This document shows, one piece after another, positions 22,217-30,739 of a stretch of 64,000 bases of DNA; within the stretch, counting starts at the first letter, position 1; each line of letters starts with the position of its first letter. The position numbers and the translations under genes are program-made. The notes beneath the pieces are model-generated. The model was not told the DNA's origin and made no database searches. It saw only the letters and a list, made by a program, of their open reading frames with translations. This DNA is from the human T2T-CHM13v2.0 reference genome, Homo sapiens. The stretch is from the NCBI RefSeq assembly GCF_009914755.1, contig NC_060925.1; one strand, given 5' to 3'.

Positions 22217-22476
22217 ATGTCCAGAAGGCTTCTTGGGGGAATATTGTCAACATCGAGACCCCTGTGAGAAGAACCGCTGCCAGAATGGTGGGACTTGTGT
22301 GGCCCAGGCCATGCTGGGGAAAGCCACGTGCCGGTGTGCCTCAGGGTTTACAGGAGAGGACTGCCAGTACTCGACACCTCATCCATGCTTTGTGTCTCGA
22401 CCTTGCCTGAATGGCGGCACATGCCATATGCTCAGCCGGGATACCTATGAGTGCACCTGTCAAGTCGGGTTTACAG
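22217..22476 (+). CDS. NOTCH2NLR: NOTCH2NL exon 3 (end of EGF1, EGF2, most of EGF3): [10 protein letters not shown]...TCQVGFT
   Basis: atacag|ATGTCC acceptor, ACAG|gtaact donor, 260 nt; overlaps ORF 22146..22484. Confidence 0.97.
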
Positions 22477-23053: not shown

Positions 23054-24330
23054 TTACTTCACTAAAAGAAATAAGTACACTGTCACCAGAGGAAAAGTTG
23101 CTGATGTTATTGACTATTTGCTTTTAGAAATCTCCCTCCCTAGACATTCAGGGCACTGGCTTTTCTGGTTTTCTGAACCCTGTTCCTTTTGCTTCTTCAT
23201 TACCTTGTTCTTATCCATTAAATGTTTGTGCTCCCTGGAGCACTGTTTTGCGCCCTCTTTTGAGCCACATCACAGCTCTCCCTAGGGAATTTCACTGTCT
23301 GTATTCGCCTCCACTGCCACTGTCTTCATTAGCTTGCTGATGAATCTCACCATCATTCCCTTAGCTCCACCCAACCCTGACATTCAGGCTCATGTTTCTA
23401 GCTATCCTTTGTATGTTCTCCTTGGAGATATTCTACAGGTACTTTCAGCTCACCTTGTTGACAGAAATACGTAGCAACCATGTACATCCCAAATACCCAC
23501 GCTAGAAACTCCCTGTCCCTTGTTCTGACCTCATTTCAACTCAGTCACCCAAGCCAACCTCTGAGTTGCCTTTCACCTGTCTATTCCTCCCATTTCCTCT
23601 GCTACCCTGTAGTTGAGGGCCATGTTATCTCTCACCTGGACTTCTGAAGTAGTTTCTGAATACGTTTTCTTGCCTTTATTCTCTCCCCATCTCATTCACC
23701 CATGATATTACTACATCTTTGATTATAAATGCAAATATTCTAACAATCTCACCTGCTTACAATGTCTAATATTTTTTCATCATCCGCAGAATAAACTGCA
23801 AACTCTTTTACATGACTTCCATAGCTCTCTACAGCCTAGACTTTACATCTTTTTATAGCCTGGCCTCCCCACAAGCATCTAGGCCTAGTCACACCAAATT
23901 CTCCTTATTTCCTGAAAATGTTGTACTTATTATTGCTTCCATACAGTTACACACCCTTTTGCCTGGAATGCCCTTTTCTACAACTGGTGATTGTCCAATG
24001 TTATTTAAAACTGTGTCTTAGTGACCCTTTCATGATTCCTTTAGGCAAATGGTCTCTAAGTTTTATTAGTTTTATGTATCACATTTTATTGTAATTTTTT
24101 TTACACATATCTCACCTGAATAGATTGTGGGTTTTTCTAGGTGGGTCTGAGCTTTATTCAAAAGTGTTTATTAAATTAGATGAGAAAAGGAGGAACATTC
24201 TTCATTTTTTCTCCTGCTTTAAGCACTAAACCAAGAGTTCTATAAATGCAATAAGCAAAAAAGTGAAAAATGTACTCAGAAGACTATACTGGATCAGTTA
24301 GTGTAGAATACTGTTATATTAATTTTTCAT

Positions 24331-24839
24331 TGTATTAGGGTTCTCTAGAGGGATGGAACTGATGGAATATATATGTATGTATATATATTCCAACCCAAAG
24401 TGTCTTGGTGGCAATCTTAATATATATATATTGGCAATCTTTATATATATATAAAGGAGAGTTTGTTAAGTATTAATTCACATGATCACAAGGTCCCACA
24501 ATAGGCTGTCTGCAGGCTGAGGAGCAAGGAGAGCCAGTCTGAGTTCCAAAACCGAAGAACTTGGGGTTCGATATTTGAGGGCAGGAAACATCCAGCACGG
24601 GAAAAAGATGTAGGCTGGGAGGCTAGGCCAGTCTCGCTTTTTCATGTTTTTCTGCCTGCTTTATATTTGCTGACAGATGATCAAATGGTGTCCATCCAGA
24701 TTAAGGGTGGGTCTGCCTTCCCCAGCCCACTGACTCAAATGTTAATCTCCTTTGGCAACACCTTCACAGACACACCCAAGATCAATACTTTGTATCCTTC
24801 AATTCAATCAAGTTGACACACTCAGTTTTAACCACCACA
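24331..24839 (-). mobile_element. MLT2A (HERV-L) 3' LTR
   Basis: Minus strand TGTGGTGGTTAAAACTGAGTG...AGAGAACCCTAATACA with TG..CA termini; preceded by purine tract GACAAGGGGTAGATT. Confidence 0.9.
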
Positions 24840-26304
24840 AATCTACCCCTTGTCAACTTGAACCCATACACATCTCCTGAGATCACACATAATCTTCAAA
24901 TAAAGACAATAATTAGGTCATAATTACACCTGATGTAGTACAACTATTCTTCGTACATCCGGAAACACACCAGTCCCCAACTGAAACACTCTTACATAAA
25001 GTTAACGATACTTAAATGCTGATGTGAAGTCAATAAATCTTATGTCACATGATAAAGGAGAAAGGAAATAAAATGAAGATATTTTCTTAGTACAAGTGTG
25101 TGCAAGCACAGACATGTTTTTAATAAAAGAAGGAGGAAATACTGAGGACAATTACAGTCCTCATTTCTGCAGCTGGTCACATGGTAGTAGGTGGTATTGA
25201 TGACTACCTTCTTCTACCCATTTTGTATTCCTTTTGCCTTCAGCAAACACCTCAGCAGGTTGTGTTTTTTTTTTTTTCCTGATGGAGAGGCCCAAACCTT
25301 CATTCATCCAGGCGGGACCATTTGTAGTCCCGCCTGGATTGGGCTGTTGTAGTTGCCCATTGACCTTAATCACAGGGCATGGTAATACTAAGAGACGCCC
25401 TAATGGATCTCCTGTATTCCATGAATACTCTTTCTTACCTCCGTTCTGGAGTAGTAGACTGATTTCATCTTGATAGCCTGGGTCTTGATAGCCTTGATGT
25501 CCCAGCCAACACTGTAACGCCTTTCTTAGCCTGTTTACTTAAAGGTAGGAACCCAAAGTGTCCTGGTGGCAATCTTAACTACCAGTTTAATGGAATTGTT
25601 GTTGTGTCTTCTGGTGGCAGCATTCCTCCCTCTGGAACTAAGACCTCTAGGCCAGCAGAACTTAATGTTGCGGGAACAGGAAGCAAACATTTTGCTAGTG
25701 GATCACTAGGGGTGATGGTGAGTGGTACCACTTCCATTTCCACCCCGTGATTCCTGGACCTGTGAATCCTGGCTATGGGAGAAGCAGTACCACATATTGG
25801 ACGCTGATTCAGAGCATACACAGCCTTCTTGAGAACTTTGCCCCAACCCTGCAAAGTATTCTCACCTAGTTGGCATTGTAATTGTGACTGCAAAAGGCCA
25901 TTCCACCGTTCTGCTTCAGGATGTTGGGGAACATGGTAAGACCAGTGAATTCCATGAGCCTGAGCCCACTGCTGCACTTCTTTAGCCATAAAGTGAATGC
26001 CTTGGTCAGAGGCAATGCTGTGTGGAATACCATGACAGTGGATAAGGCATTCCATGAGTCCGCGGATGGTAGTCTTGGCAGAACCATTGCATGCAGGATA
26101 GGCAAACCCATATCCAGAGTAAGTGTTTATTCCAGTAAGGACAAACGTCTGCCCTTTTCACAATGGAAGAAGTCCAACATAATCAACCTGCCACCAAGTA
26201 GCTGGCTGATCACCCTGAGGAATAGTGCCATATCAAAGGCGCAGTGTTGGTTTCTGCTGCTGGCAAATTGGGCACTCTGCGGTGGCAGTAGCCAGGTCAG
26301 CTTT
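24840..26304 (-). mobile_element. HERV-L internal 3' part: degenerate integrase (Zn-finger end + core) and dUTPase
   Basis: ECPICQQQKPTL, IPHSIASDQG, WSYHVP..PEAERWNGLL and VLVPEGGMLPP peptides in broken minus-strand ORFs. Confidence 0.92.
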
Positions 26305-26544
26305 CCACCGGCCCATCTTGTTTTCTGCACTGGGAAGGTGGGGCATGAGCACAAATGTTAGGACCTGAAAGGTGGTGAACTCTGCCTGGGCAGGGCAAAG
26401 CCAGAGGAAACTCTGGTGGAGGTCCGTAGCAGTCCTGATGTGCAAATCGGTCATCCAACCTGGGTGTAGGGGCGAAAGACTAATTGAACCATCTAGTAGC
26501 TGGTTCCCTCCAAAGTTTCCCTCGGGATAGCTGGCACTCTCGCA
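26305..26544 (+). pseudogene. 28S rRNA fragment (~240 nt, diverged, CpG-decayed)
   Basis: ttaggacc.gaaag.tggtgaact.tgcctgggcaggg...gccagaggaaactctggtggaggtccgtagc...ggggcgaaagactaat.gaaccatctagtagctggttccctcc.aagtttccctc.ggatagctggc is conserved LSU core sequence. Confidence 0.95.
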
Positions 26545-26548
26545 AAAA

Positions 26549-26921
26549 CCCCACTCTTGGTACCAATTTACTGTATTAGTCCATTTTCACGCTGCTGATA
26601 AAGATATCCCCGAGACCGGGAAGAAAAGAGGTTTAATTGGACTTACAGTTCCATATGGCTGGGGAGGCCTCAGAATTATGGTGGGAGGCAAAAGGCACTT
26701 CTTTCGTGGTGGTGGCAAGAGAAAATTAGGAAGAAGCAAAAGCAGAACCCCTGAGGAACCCATCAGATCTCATGAGACTTATTCACTATCATGAGAATAG
26801 CACAGGAAAGACTGGCCCCCATGATACAGTTACCCCACTGGGTCCCTCCCACAACACATGGGAATTCTGGGAGATACAATTCAAGTTGAGATTTGGGTGG
26901 GGACACTACCAAACCATATCA
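26549..26921 (-). mobile_element. THE1A (MaLR) 5' LTR (26572-26921) plus first ~23 nt of THE1-int
   Basis: Minus strand TGATATGGTTT...GGACTAATACA (350 bp) followed by GTAAATTGGTACCAAGAGTGGGG, the THE1 internal start. Confidence 0.92.
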
Positions 26922-27253
26922 TTCATCAAAAGGTGTTGGTGGGGTAGAGGGTAGTTAGGATGATCCATGATCTCCATCATGATGATGATGGTATTGATGA
27001 TGTAAGTCACTGAAAATATTTGGTGTTATAAGAATAATTTCTTCCTGATTGTCAGTTTTGAGTTGTTTTGCTATTAGGAGGCAAAGTAGGGGGGCATATA
27101 CCCACTTAAAATATTTCAATTCTGGCTAGTGGAAATGACAGTAATGCCTTCTTCATAATTAAAATGTCACTCTGAAATGGTCCCAAATTAAAACTTCTTC
27201 CTTGTTGTTAAGAAGGATCTCTTCTTGGTGTGTTCTGCAAGATTCTGATCACC

Positions 27254-27556
27254 TTTTTTTTTTTTTTTTTTTTTTTTGAGATGGAGTATTGCTTTGTCAT
27301 CCAGGCTGGAGTGCAGGGCGCAATCTCGGTTCACTGCAAGTTCCACCTCCCGGGTTCACGCCATTCTTCTGCCTCAGCCTCCTGAGTAGCTGGGACTACA
27401 GGCACCTACCGCCATGCCCGGCTAATTTTTGTATTTTTAGTAGAGATGGGCTTTCACCTTGTTAGCCAGAATGGTCTGGATCGCCTGACCTCATGATCCA
27501 CCCGCCTCGGCCTCCCAAAGTGCTGGGATTACAGGTGTGAGCCACCACACCGGGCC
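27254..27556 (-). mobile_element. AluY with TSD GATTCTGATCA
   Basis: Reverse Alu; direct repeat at 27241 and 27557. Confidence 0.95.
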
Positions 27557-27836: not shown

Positions 27837-28143
27837 CTTTCTCTCTCTTTCCCTCTCTCTTTCTGTCTTTCTTTCTTCTCACTCTGTTGCTTAGTACAGT
27901 GGCGCAGTCTCGGCTCACTGCAACCTCCACCTCTTGGGTTCGAGTGATTCTTGTGCCTCAGCCTCCCAGGTAGCTGGGATTACAGGTATGCGCTATGAAG
28001 CCCGGCTAATTTTTGTATTTTTAGAAAAGATGGCGTTTCACCATGTTGGCCAGGCTGGTCTCAAACTCCTAACCACAAGTGATCTGCCCACCTCAGCCTC
28101 CCAAAGTGCTGGGATTACAGGCATCAGCCACCACTTCCGGCCC
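27759..28143 (-). mobile_element. AluS with tail expanded into a (CTTT)n microsatellite (~27759-27880)
   Basis: Reverse Alu preceded by a tetranucleotide array. Confidence 0.92.
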
Positions 28144-30403: not shown

Positions 30404-30739
30404 GTAAGGAGTGCCAATGGACCGATGCCTGCCTGTCTCATCTCTGTGCAAATGGAAGTACCTGTACCACTGTGGCCAACCAGTTCTCCTGCAAATGCCT
30501 CACAGGCTTCACAGGGCAGAAGTGTGAGACTGATGTCAATGAGTGTGACATTCCAGGACACTGCCAGCATGGTGGCACCTGCCTCAACCTGCCTGGTTCC
30601 TACCAGTGCCAGTGCCTTCAGGGCTTCACAGGCCAGTACTGTGACAGACTGTATGTGCCCTGTGCACACTCGCCTTGTGTCAATGGAGGCACCTGTCGGC
30701 AGACTGGTGACTTCACTTTTGAGTGCAACTGCCTTCCAG
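30404..30739 (+). CDS. NOTCH2NLR: NOTCH2NL exon 4 (EGF4, calcium-binding EGF5, most of EGF6): [15 protein letters not shown]...FECNCLP
   Basis: ctttag|GTAAGG acceptor, CCAG|gtaagg donor, 336 nt; DVNEC cbEGF motif; overlaps ORF 30472..30927. Confidence 0.97.

What the first reader, a model, noticed from the sequence alone, without database searches (positions are those of the whole stretch)
24326..26926. Tri-chimeric provirus: THE1A LTR + 28S rRNA + HERV-L IN/dUTPase + MLT2A LTR inside one TSD-like repeat
Seen: on the minus strand the order is THE1A LTR (26921-26572), ~23 nt of THE1-int, an antisense 28S rRNA piece (26544-26305), HERV-L starting inside the integrase Zn finger and running to the polypurine tract, then an MLT2A LTR (24839-24331). 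The same 5-mer TTCAT lies immediately outside both TG..CA termini (24326-24330 and 26922-26926). Known: ERV-L/MaLR integrations create 5-bp TSDs; normal reverse transcription makes both LTRs identical; MaLRs such as THE1 are non-autonomous and are thought to use ERV-L enzymes. Inference: this was integrated as one molecule joined from a MaLR 5' end and a HERV-L 3' end, bridged by cellular rRNA sequence. That would be a fossil of THE1A/HERV-L co-packaging. A repeat masker would list four unrelated hits and miss the structure.
Basis: partly seen in the sequence, partly recalled or inferred. Interest (0 to 1): 0.85.

Follow-up and report, generated by a model that had tools for sequence, protein, structure and literature searches.

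The report
Hybrid THE1/HERV-L provirus patched with rRNA
One ancient retroviral insertion in a NOTCH2-family intron starts with the repeat and primer site of a THE1 element, continues through 240 bases of backwards 28S rRNA and ends as the tail of a HERV-L virus, which suggests that the two elements were being copied in the same particle.

Summary
On the minus strand: ATGAA | THE1-type LTR (26921-26572) | 6-nt spacer and 18-nt primer binding site (PBS, 26565-26548) | TTT | antisense 28S rRNA (26544-26305) | HERV-L from the middle of the integrase zinc finger to the polypurine tract (26304-24840) | complete MLT2A-type LTR (24839-24331) | ATGAA.

New here:
- The "23 nt of THE1-int" is a spacer plus a PBS matching tRNA-Leu(UAA) at 17 of 18 positions. 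The THE1 part is therefore what plus-strand strong-stop DNA contains.
- The rRNA is antisense. That fits plus-strand DNA copied from rRNA, not minus-strand recombination.
- A HERV-L copy has the same PBS type, and both LTRs end in CTAATACA.
- The rRNA piece and one HERV-L LTR pair are about 5-7% diverged per lineage. Each viral part is about 10% from its nearest copy.
- NOTCH2 and four NOTCH2NL paralogs all carry the whole element. No other copy of the two junctions was found.

Best reading: one integrase-mediated insertion of a hybrid reverse-transcription product, a fossil of THE1 and HERV-L intermediates sharing a particle.

Not tested: the empty site in other primates, because no such genomes are held. 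The 5-mer match has a chance rate of about 0.1%. It is a new variant of known mosaic ERVs.

The parts
26922..26926 (-). 5' copy of the 5-bp target-site duplication (ATGAA on the minus strand, TTCAT on the plus strand)
   Evidence: It reads ATGAA in 4 of 5 paralogs and ATGAG in L015.
26572..26921 (-). Complete THE1-type MaLR LTR (TGATATGG...CTAATACA)
   Evidence: 87.6-90.7% identity over positions 1-350 to the 25 fetched copies.
26566..26571 (-). Spacer GTAAAT between the LTR and the PBS
   Evidence: the same spacer is read in nearly all of the 23 loci that have a PBS (L064 reads GTATAT).
26548..26565 (-). 18-nt primer binding site, complementary to the 3' end of tRNA-Leu(UAA)
   Evidence: 17 of 18 positions match the complement of a genomic tRNA-Leu(TAA) gene end plus CCA. 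The CCA is added after transcription; that is established knowledge, not seen in the gene.
26545..26547 (-). TTT of uncertain origin at the THE1/rRNA junction
   Evidence: Three sources are possible: untemplated bases, read-through into the tRNA, or a decayed overlap of THE1-int (..ATTGC) with antisense 28S (..TCTGC).
26305..26544 (+). 240-nt piece of 28S rRNA, sense on the + strand and therefore antisense within the element
   Evidence: (Rfam E 2.5e-41), (212 of 240, no gaps).
24840..26304 (-). HERV-L internal part, from the middle of the integrase zinc finger to the polypurine tract
   Evidence: co-linear with 25 of 25 HERV-L copies. One search places the junction within the zinc finger.
25918..26148 (-). 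Integrase core (rve) domain
   Evidence: PF00665, E 1.7e-11.
25504..25683 (-). Decayed dUTPase domain (N-terminal half in this frame, with an in-frame stop)
   Evidence: PF00692, E 0.0045, 17.2 bits, below the cut-off of 22. Frames are shown.
24842..24853 (-). Purine-rich tract (ACAAGGGGTAGA) just before the 3' LTR
   Evidence: The same context lies before the 3' LTR of the copy in L037.
24331..24839 (-). Complete MLT2A-type (HERV-L) LTR, TGTGGTGG...CTAATACA
24393..24422 (-). 30-nt copy of the element's own dUTPase-region sequence (25580-25551), set between (TA)n runs inside the LTR
   Evidence: 27 of 30 identical. It is present in 5 of 5 paralogs and 0 of 25 other HERV-L loci.
24326..24330 (-). 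3' copy of the 5-bp target-site duplication (ATGAA on the minus strand)
   Evidence: identical in 5 of 5 paralogs.

Best explanation
This is one integrase-mediated insertion of a hybrid DNA made during reverse transcription in a particle or complex that held THE1 RNA, HERV-L RNA and 28S rRNA.

Inferred sequence of events:
1. THE1 reverse transcription reached plus-strand strong-stop DNA (U3-R-U5 plus the 18 nt copied from the tRNA-Leu primer).
2. At or within a few bases of the normal plus-strand transfer, that 3' end was instead extended for 240 nt on 28S rRNA. This writes antisense rRNA into the plus strand.
3. The extended end then paired end-to-end with a HERV-L minus-strand DNA whose 3' end lay in the integrase zinc-finger region.
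4. Each strand was completed on the other.

The product carried a THE1 U3 end on the left and a HERV-L U5 end on the right. Both LTRs end in CTAATACA. It was integrated with a 5-bp duplication (ATGAA). The element is defective, and no second copy with these junctions was found outside the later NOTCH2/NOTCH2NL segmental duplications.

Shown: the anatomy, the PBS identity, the orientation of the rRNA, the sharp junctions, the duplication and the similar divergence figures. Inferred: the order of strand events, and co-packaging.
For: **One integration**
- Intact TG..CA ends and identical flanking 5-mers. The chance rate is 0.11-0.12%.
- Unrelated THE1 5' flanks paired with HERV-L 3' flanks gave 0 of 63 identical pairs. 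This control has low power.
- Two ordinary elements show 5-bp flanking repeats. A HERV-L provirus has CCCGG/CCCAG, differing by one CpG transition. A solo THE1 LTR has GCTTT/GTTTT.

**Not the normal product of one chimeric RNA**
- Both LTRs are complete and unrelated to each other. Normal reverse transcription makes the two LTRs identical (established knowledge; PMC3187697, passages read).

**The THE1 part is LTR plus PBS**
- The PBS matches the tRNA-Leu(TAA) gene end plus CCA at 17 of 18 positions.
- The THE1 part ends 0-6 nt after the PBS, whereas 22 of 23 other THE1 copies that have a PBS continue into the internal region. That region is about 1.3 kb or longer.
- The PBS has the tRNA's length. 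Of the 23 other copies, 18 carry a 2-nt insertion and 5 do not.

**Orientation of the rRNA**
- It is antisense to the element. That is the orientation made when a plus-strand 3' end copies rRNA.

**Shared cis signals**
- A HERV-L copy has the same PBS type, 15 of 18, 5 nt after an LTR ending CTAATACA.

**Similar divergence of the parts**
- rRNA piece: 5.2% substitutions other than CpG transitions (10 over 194 non-CpG bases), plus 18 CpG transitions.
- Nearest relatives: THE1 LTR 90%, HERV-L integrase region 89%, 3' LTR 90%.
- One HERV-L provirus has 58 mismatches in 445 aligned LTR columns.

**Single event**
- The only hits spanning both junctions are the five paralogs (40 of 1535 candidates scored).

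**Precedent**
- Retroviral nonhomologous recombination often uses a third, host-RNA template as a patch (PMC4997597, passages read).
Against: - No outgroup or empty site could be examined, so 'one event' rests on a single 5-mer match and on anatomy.
- In the copy taken to be NOTCH2 (L015) the 5' 5-mer is ATGAG. The ancestral state is inferred only indirectly: 13 of 15 polarisable L015-specific differences are derived in L015.
- Neither junction shows clear microhomology. The rRNA-to-HERV-L junction is blunt. The THE1-to-rRNA junction has an unexplained TTT, and the THE1 part may run up to 6 nt past the PBS.
- The PBS-boundary argument was formed after seeing the sequence.
- The PBS-length argument could reflect THE1 subfamily structure instead.
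- The age comparison uses nearest neighbours among the few best-scored copies, and only one HERV-L LTR pair.
- The plus-strand route needs two rare events in one particle.
Confidence: 0.55

Rival explanations
1. There was still one integration event and the two elements still shared a complex, but host end-joining made the inner joints rather than reverse transcriptase. Two incomplete cDNAs (a THE1 LTR+PBS duplex and the 3' part of a HERV-L DNA) were held in one intasome. Their outer ends were integrated in concert, and their inner ends were ligated with an rRNA-cDNA fragment as filler.
For: - The rRNA-to-HERV-L junction is blunt, and there are 3 unassigned bases at the THE1-to-rRNA junction. 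Both are typical of end-joining.
- The duplication and the intact LTR ends fit this reading as well.
- The LTR+PBS boundary is also explained if the fragment was strong-stop DNA.
Against: - It needs a double-stranded rRNA cDNA fragment and two ligations inside an integration complex.
- It predicts a random orientation for the filler, so the antisense orientation is not explained. That is only a factor of two.
- No call separates it from the best explanation.
Confidence: 0.2
2. There were two independent insertions followed by a rearrangement. A HERV-L provirus and a THE1 element landed next to or inside each other. A later deletion removed everything from just after the THE1 PBS to the HERV-L integrase, with rRNA-derived filler at the break. 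The identical flanking 5-mers are then either chance, or THE1 happened to integrate exactly at the HERV-L 5' duplication.
For: - Mosaic chains made by secondary integration are common among HERVs (PMC4724089, passages read).
- The 5' 5-mer is only 4 of 5 in L015. A match of 4 or more of 5 has a chance rate of 1.7%.
- No empty site was available to test (the flanks occur only in the five paralogs).
Against: - A 5-of-5 match has a chance rate of 0.11-0.12%, and A at 26922 is probably ancestral.
- The deletion would also have to start within 0-6 nt of the PBS end, out of an internal region of about 1.3 kb or longer.
- It would have to capture rRNA sequence as well.
- The divergence figures for the parts are similar.
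Confidence: 0.12
3. It is an assembly or duplication artefact with no biological junctions.
For: The region lies in recent segmental duplications, which are hard to assemble.
Against: Five separately assembled paralogs, 98.7-99.5% identical, carry the same two junctions and both ends.
Confidence: 0.01

Closest known systems
Tertiary-template ('patch repair') insertions at nonhomologous retroviral recombination junctions. Source: the review PMC4997597, passages read. The primary paper it cites, Duggal et al. 2007, is not held.
   Same: - Two unrelated viral genomes are joined.
- A stretch of packaged host RNA is copied in between them.
- The whole thing is made during reverse transcription in one particle.
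   Different: - Those cases are experimental vectors and are attributed to template switching between RNA templates, which would write a host RNA in sense (my inference).
- Here the patch is antisense and begins at the PBS, which points to plus-strand synthesis.
- The product has two different LTRs.
- It is a germline fossil that joins a non-autonomous element to its presumed helper.
Complex LTR-retrotransposon insertions with flanking duplications, made by abnormal template switching in Triticeae (Sabot and Schulman 2007, PMC1950507; abstract and Results read)
   Same: - The argument has the same form: a composite element flanked by one 5-bp duplication is one integration of one aberrant reverse-transcription product.
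- Co-packaging of two different RNAs is invoked there too.
   Different: - The plant complexes join closely related elements.
- They have three LTRs, and their outer LTRs are highly similar.
- Here the two outer LTRs belong to different families, there is no internal LTR, and host rRNA is included.
Mosaic and recombinant HERVs, such as HARLEQUIN and HERVS with a class I env (Vargiu et al. 2016, PMC4724089; Kojima 2018, PMC5753468; passages read in both)
   Same: These are proviruses built from parts of different ERV families, explained by cross-packaging and recombination.
   Different: - For some mosaic chains Vargiu et al. present evidence of infectious recombinants capable of reintegration (PMC4724089, passage read); that such families have matching LTRs is my inference.
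- MaLR pieces in HERV chains were mostly judged to be secondary insertions or software artefacts (PMC4724089).
- This element is a dead-end single event with unlike LTRs and a shared duplication.
LTR swapping between autonomous and non-autonomous retrotransposon partners in soybean (Du et al. 2010). Seen only as a reference in PMC6894440; its content is recalled.
   Same: It shows exchange of LTRs between a helper family and the non-autonomous family that depends on it.
   Different: - It is a plant Gypsy system.
- The exchange there gave new replicating lineages, not a single hybrid with two different LTRs.

Membership tests
Integrase-mediated LTR-element insertion (a single provirus) | Termini TG...CA at the outer ends | tested here: met
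   TGATATGG... at 26921 and ...CTAATACA at 24331.
Integrase-mediated LTR-element insertion (a single provirus) | Short direct repeat of host DNA of the family's length (5 bp for ERV-L/MaLR) directly outside both ends | tested here: met
   ATGAA on both sides in 4 of 5 paralogs and ATGAG/ATGAA in the fifth. The chance rate is 0.11-0.12%. The 5-bp length was seen in one HERV-L provirus and one THE1 solo LTR, 4 of 5 each.
Integrase-mediated LTR-element insertion (a single provirus) | Two LTRs that were identical at integration | tested here: not met
   The 5' LTR is THE1-type and the 3' LTR is MLT2A-type, with no similarity between them. This is the feature that makes the element abnormal.
Integrase-mediated LTR-element insertion (a single provirus) | Empty site with one copy of the 5-mer in species lacking the element | not testable with these tools
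   No primate genomes are held. The flanks occur only in the five paralogs.
HERV-L (ERV-L, class III) | pol with an integrase core followed by a dUTPase | tested here: met
   rve E 1.7e-11. dUTPase is weak, E 0.0045 and below the cut-off. The part is co-linear with 25 of 25 HERV-L copies.
HERV-L (ERV-L, class III) | Full provirus: 5' MLT2 LTR, tRNA-Leu PBS, gag, pro, RT | tested here: not met
   Everything upstream of the second half of the integrase zinc finger is absent.
THE1 (MaLR) | THE1 LTR followed by a spacer and a tRNA-Leu-type PBS | tested here: met
THE1 (MaLR) | THE1 internal region and a second THE1 LTR | tested here: not met
   Homology ends 0-6 nt after the PBS.
THE1 (MaLR) | Subfamily A rather than B, C or D; likewise MLT2A1 versus MLT2A2 for the 3' LTR | not testable with these tools
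No Dfam or Repbase library is held.
Host-RNA patch at a retroviral nonhomologous recombination junction | Host RNA sequence lies between two unrelated viral segments | tested here: met
   240 nt of 28S rRNA lie between the THE1 PBS and the HERV-L integrase region.
Host-RNA patch at a retroviral nonhomologous recombination junction | Microhomology that splints the junctions | tested here: inconclusive
   There is none at the rRNA-to-HERV-L junction. At most 3-4 nt, blurred by TTT, lie at the THE1-to-rRNA junction.

The most novel reading that the evidence does not exclude
The element is a physical record that a non-autonomous MaLR (THE1) and HERV-L were reverse-transcribed inside the same particle in the primate germ line. 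THE1 plus-strand strong-stop DNA failed its normal transfer, copied packaged 28S rRNA, and was completed on HERV-L minus-strand DNA. This would be direct evidence for the long-assumed dependence of MaLRs on ERV-L machinery (they share a tRNA-Leu(UAA) PBS and a CTAATACA LTR end). It would also point to a class of plus-strand-transfer accidents that could be searched for genome-wide. One other THE1 copy, L048, also breaks right after the PBS.
Probability: 0.5. Interest if true: 0.65.

Novelty: new variant of a known kind. Interest (0 to 1): 0.55.

Why it matters
MaLRs such as THE1 are among the most numerous LTR elements in the human genome. They encode no polymerase or integrase, and their reliance on ERV-L enzymes is assumed from similarity rather than shown. 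A single integration product with a THE1 left end and a HERV-L right end places replication intermediates of both in one complex. It also shows that both kinds of LTR end were accepted in one integration.

The antisense rRNA that starts at the PBS gives an unusually readable trace of which strand was being made when the error happened. It also gives a concrete search pattern for more such fossils: an LTR plus PBS, then foreign sequence, then an unlike 3' LTR, all inside one duplication.

For NOTCH2 and NOTCH2NL biology it is probably neutral intronic sequence.

Tried and rejected
1. **Empty site from paralogous repeats.** Both flanks (26922-27245 and 23900-24330) hit only the five paralogs, so the site cannot be rebuilt that way.
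2. **Other copies of the junctions.** A query across both junctions found only the five paralogs and the rDNA units (40 of 1535 candidates scored).
3. **Minus-strand template switching onto rRNA.** Rejected, because it would write rRNA in sense, and the rRNA here is antisense.
4. **Retrotransposition of a pre-existing chimeric RNA.** Rejected, because it would give two identical hybrid LTRs.
5. **tRNA read-through as the source of TTT.** The tRNA gene predicts T then CGAACC after the PBS, so at most the first T fits.
6. **Empirical chance control with real flanks.** Only 3 HERV-L 3' flanks passed my filter, giving 0 of 63 cross pairs. Power is low. A first version of the script timed out.
7. 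**L048 as a second example.** No partner 5-mer (ACTCC) and no RNA family other than Alu-like hits lie within 1.5 kb downstream. Inconclusive.
8. **More duplication controls and a genome-wide scan for unlike-LTR pairs.** Not done.
10. **Literature.** Six full-text searches listed no report of a THE1/HERV-L hybrid with unlike LTRs or of rRNA inside an ERV-L. Only the top 8-15 papers of each search were seen as listings. Supplements of PMC4724089, which list individual mosaic chains, were not opened and may include this locus.
Full report
**Where it is**

The window is human chr1 (T2T-CHM13), in the intron of NOTCH2NLR between the exons at 22217-22476 and 30404-30739. The element lies on the minus strand from 26921 to 24331. 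All orders below are given on that strand.

**Anatomy**

Reading the sequence gives this order:
- host ...CTTTTG, then ATGAA
- TGATATGG...CTAATACA (26921-26572)
- G TAAAT
- TGGTACCAAGAGTGGGGT (26565-26548)
- TTT
- 240 nt (26544-26305)
- HERV-L pol sequence down to a purine tract (ACAAGGGGTAGA, 24853-24842)
- TGTGGTGG...CTAATACA (24839-24331)
- ATGAA, then host AAATTAAT...

**The four parts**

1. *THE1-type LTR.* It matches other genomic copies at 88-90% across its whole length. The search scored 40 of 6012 candidates; 5 are paralogs of this locus and 35 are other copies.
   - In 23 of the 25 fetched loci the LTR is followed by the same spacer and a PBS.
   - In the other 2 loci (L062, L066) unrelated sequence follows straight after the LTR end.
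2. *28S rRNA piece.* Rfam finds LSU_rRNA_eukarya on the + strand at E 2.5e-41. Against the rDNA units on contig 13, the match is window 26305-26544, 212 of 240 identical and ungapped. The rRNA is therefore antisense within the element.
3. *HERV-L part.* Twenty-five fetched HERV-L copies align co-linearly from the junction down into the 3' LTR.
   - In 20 the alignment starts exactly at 26304, and in 5 at 26295-26300.
   - In none does it pass 26304, although each locus holds 1,500 more bases upstream.
   - Translation of 7 copies shows ...H-EQSG-H...(about 27 residues)...C-P-I-C. The element starts at K-ADLATATAE-CPIC, between the two halves of the integrase zinc finger.
   - Pfam finds the integrase core at E 1.7e-11.
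   - The dUTPase match is weak: E 0.0045, 17.2 bits, below the cut-off of 22, with one stop read as X.
4. *3' LTR.* It matches other LTRs of the kind attached to those HERV-L copies at 86-90% (one row at 83%) from its first base (40 of 3999 candidates scored). The match is interrupted only by an insert of about 58 nt near its end.

No repeat library is held, so the subfamilies were not tested.

**The '23 nt of THE1-int' is a primer binding site**

A tRNA-Leu(TAA) gene was fetched from contig 6 and confirmed by ARAGORN. It ends ...GGTTCGAACCCCACTCCTGGTA. With the CCA that is added after transcription (established knowledge), its last 18 nt are complementary to the element's 26565-26548 at 17 of 18 positions.

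The THE1-derived part is therefore U3-R-U5, a 6-nt spacer and the PBS, and it stops there:
- 22 of the 23 other THE1 copies with a PBS run on into the internal region (...TTGCTGAAAAGATACC...). One, L048, also diverges right after the PBS.
- The three T at 26547-26545 cannot be assigned. THE1-int would read ATTGC here and antisense 28S would read TCTGC, so the break lies 0-6 nt after the PBS.
- The THE1 internal region is at least about 1.3 kb. It measures about 1.3 and 1.43 kb in the two loci that reach the 3' LTR. A random break would fall in this 7-nt stretch about 0.5% of the time. This argument was made after seeing the data.

**Junctions**

At the rRNA-to-HERV-L junction the rRNA ends ...GGGCCGGTGG and HERV-L starts AA(A/G)GCTGACC. 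There is no overlap between them.

**One integration or two?**

*For one integration:*
- The outer ends are intact LTR termini, and the 5-mer next to each is ATGAA.
- Identical 5-mers at this spacing occur at 72 of 61,399 positions in the window (0.12%). Base composition predicts 0.11%, and 1.7% for a match of 4 or more of 5.
- Real but unrelated flanks (21 THE1 5' flanks against 3 HERV-L 3' flanks) gave 0 of 63 matches. This is too few to add much.
- Ordinary members show 5-bp repeats:
  - A HERV-L provirus on contig 1 has CCCGG/CCCAG, one CpG transition apart.
  - A solo THE1 LTR has GCTTT/GTTTT.

*Against:*
- The fifth paralog, L015, which by position and strand is probably NOTCH2 itself, reads ATGAG at the 5' side.
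- Of 15 sites where L015 differs from the other four copies and the family copies or rDNA give a polarity, 13 are derived in L015 and 2 on the other branch. A is therefore probably ancestral, but this is indirect.
- The flanks occur nowhere else in the genome, and no other primate genome is held. The empty-site test could not be made.

**Why it cannot be an ordinary copy of a chimeric RNA**

Normal reverse transcription builds both LTRs from the same U3, R and U5 (PMC3187697, passages read). Here the two LTRs are complete and unrelated. The hybrid must therefore have formed from two sets of intermediates.

**Proposed mechanism (inferred)**

Plus-strand strong-stop DNA consists of U3-R-U5 plus a copy of part of the tRNA primer (PMC3187697). 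That is the content of the THE1 part.
1. The 3' end of this DNA, instead of completing the normal plus-strand transfer, was extended on a 28S rRNA molecule. The new DNA is then complementary to rRNA, so antisense rRNA appears in the plus strand, as observed.
2. The extended plus strand and a HERV-L minus-strand DNA ending in the integrase region then served as templates for each other.
3. The result has a THE1 U3 end on the left and a HERV-L U5 end on the right.

Points that bear on this:
- A switch during minus-strand synthesis would write the rRNA in sense.
- Both LTRs end in CTAATACA.
- The one HERV-L 5' end examined has the same PBS type (TGGTACCAGGAGTGG..., 15 of 18) placed 5 nt after its LTR. 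The two families thus share primer and end signals.
- The element's PBS has the tRNA's length, whereas 18 of 23 other THE1 copies carry a 2-nt insertion. This is expected if the PBS was copied from the tRNA, but it could also reflect subfamily structure.
- Copying of packaged host RNA as a third template at nonhomologous junctions is documented for retroviruses (PMC4997597, passages read). The primary paper is not held.

**Ages**

- The rRNA piece has 28 differences from rDNA. Eighteen are CpG transitions and 10 are others over 194 non-CpG bases, or 5.2%.
- The nearest non-paralog relatives are 90% (THE1 LTR), 89% (HERV-L integrase region) and 90% (3' LTR). That is about 5% per lineage if the sources were alike.
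- The two LTRs of the HERV-L provirus on contig 1 differ at 58 of 445 aligned columns, plus 18 gap positions. That is about 6.5% per LTR.
- These figures are compatible with one date for all parts, roughly the early anthropoid era by recalled neutral rates. The comparison is coarse.

**Later history**

All five paralogs (four NOTCH2NL-type and L015) carry the entire element at 98.7-99.5% identity, with the same junctions. The element therefore predates the duplications, and it is not an assembly artefact.

**Rivals**

- *Host end-joining of two partial cDNAs within one integration complex.* This fits almost as well and still implies that the two elements shared a complex. Only the rRNA orientation and parsimony favour synthesis by reverse transcriptase.
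- *Two insertions plus a deletion with filler.* This needs a 0.1% coincidence, or a THE1 hit exactly on the HERV-L duplication. It also needs a deletion edge at the PBS and the capture of rRNA.

**Comparison with the literature**

- Mosaic HERVs are common and are attributed to cross-packaging (PMC4724089). Recombinant families such as HARLEQUIN are catalogued (PMC5753468).
- In plants, composite elements inside one duplication were explained by abnormal template switching, but their outer LTRs are alike (PMC1950507, Results read).
- Six searches listed no THE1/HERV-L hybrid with unlike LTRs and no rRNA patch in an ERV-L. Supplementary tables of PMC4724089 were not opened.

**Verdict**

- I put about 0.75-0.8 on a single integration of a hybrid molecule, and about 0.55 on the full plus-strand account.
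- It is a new variant of a known kind. It is of real interest to people who study retroelement replication and of little consequence for the host gene.

Noticed in passing
window 24384-24442 (core copy at 24393-24422): Inside the 3' LTR, between (TA)n runs, sits a 30-nt copy (27 of 30 identical) of the element's own dUTPase-region sequence at 25580-25551, plus a shorter partial copy (AAGATTGCCAA). It is present in 5 of 5 paralogs and in 0 of 25 other HERV-L loci. It may be a further template switch from the same reverse transcription, or a later templated repair at the TA repeat.
   Followed up: partly
L048 (G000:C16:95186315-95189693, minus strand): This is another THE1 5' LTR plus PBS whose homology to THE1 stops right after the PBS. 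GC-rich, partly tandem sequence follows. No matching 5-mer and no RNA family other than Alu-like hits lie within 1.5 kb. It may be a second plus-strand-transfer accident, or simply a deletion.
   Followed up: partly
window 24180-27070 compared with L015 (G000:C1:120013264-120016968): Where polarity can be inferred, 13 of 15 differences between the presumed NOTCH2 copy and the four NOTCH2NL-type copies are derived in the NOTCH2 copy. This asymmetry may reflect gene conversion among the paralogs.
   Followed up: no
window 25299-25319 and 25276-25277: One paralog (L014) lacks 21 nt of the dUTPase region. The window copy has two extra A in the A-run at about 25265-25277.
   Followed up: no
window 26233-26586, minus strand: A stop-free frame of 117 codons runs from the end of the THE1 LTR through the PBS and the antisense rRNA, in frame with the integrase fragment. 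There is no Pfam match. It is probably chance in GC-rich sequence.
   Followed up: partly
L046-L070 (THE1 5' ends): THE1 copies carry two PBS forms: one of the tRNA's length (5 of 23) and one with a 2-nt insertion (18 of 23). Such a mixture could arise if the plus-strand PBS is copied from the tRNA and the minus-strand PBS from a mutated genomic PBS. It could also mark subfamilies.
   Followed up: no
window 27276-27555 and 28025-28141: Alu-type repeats lie just upstream of the element. Rfam reports them as Metazoa_SRP and mir-1268 matches below the gathering scores.
   Followed up: no
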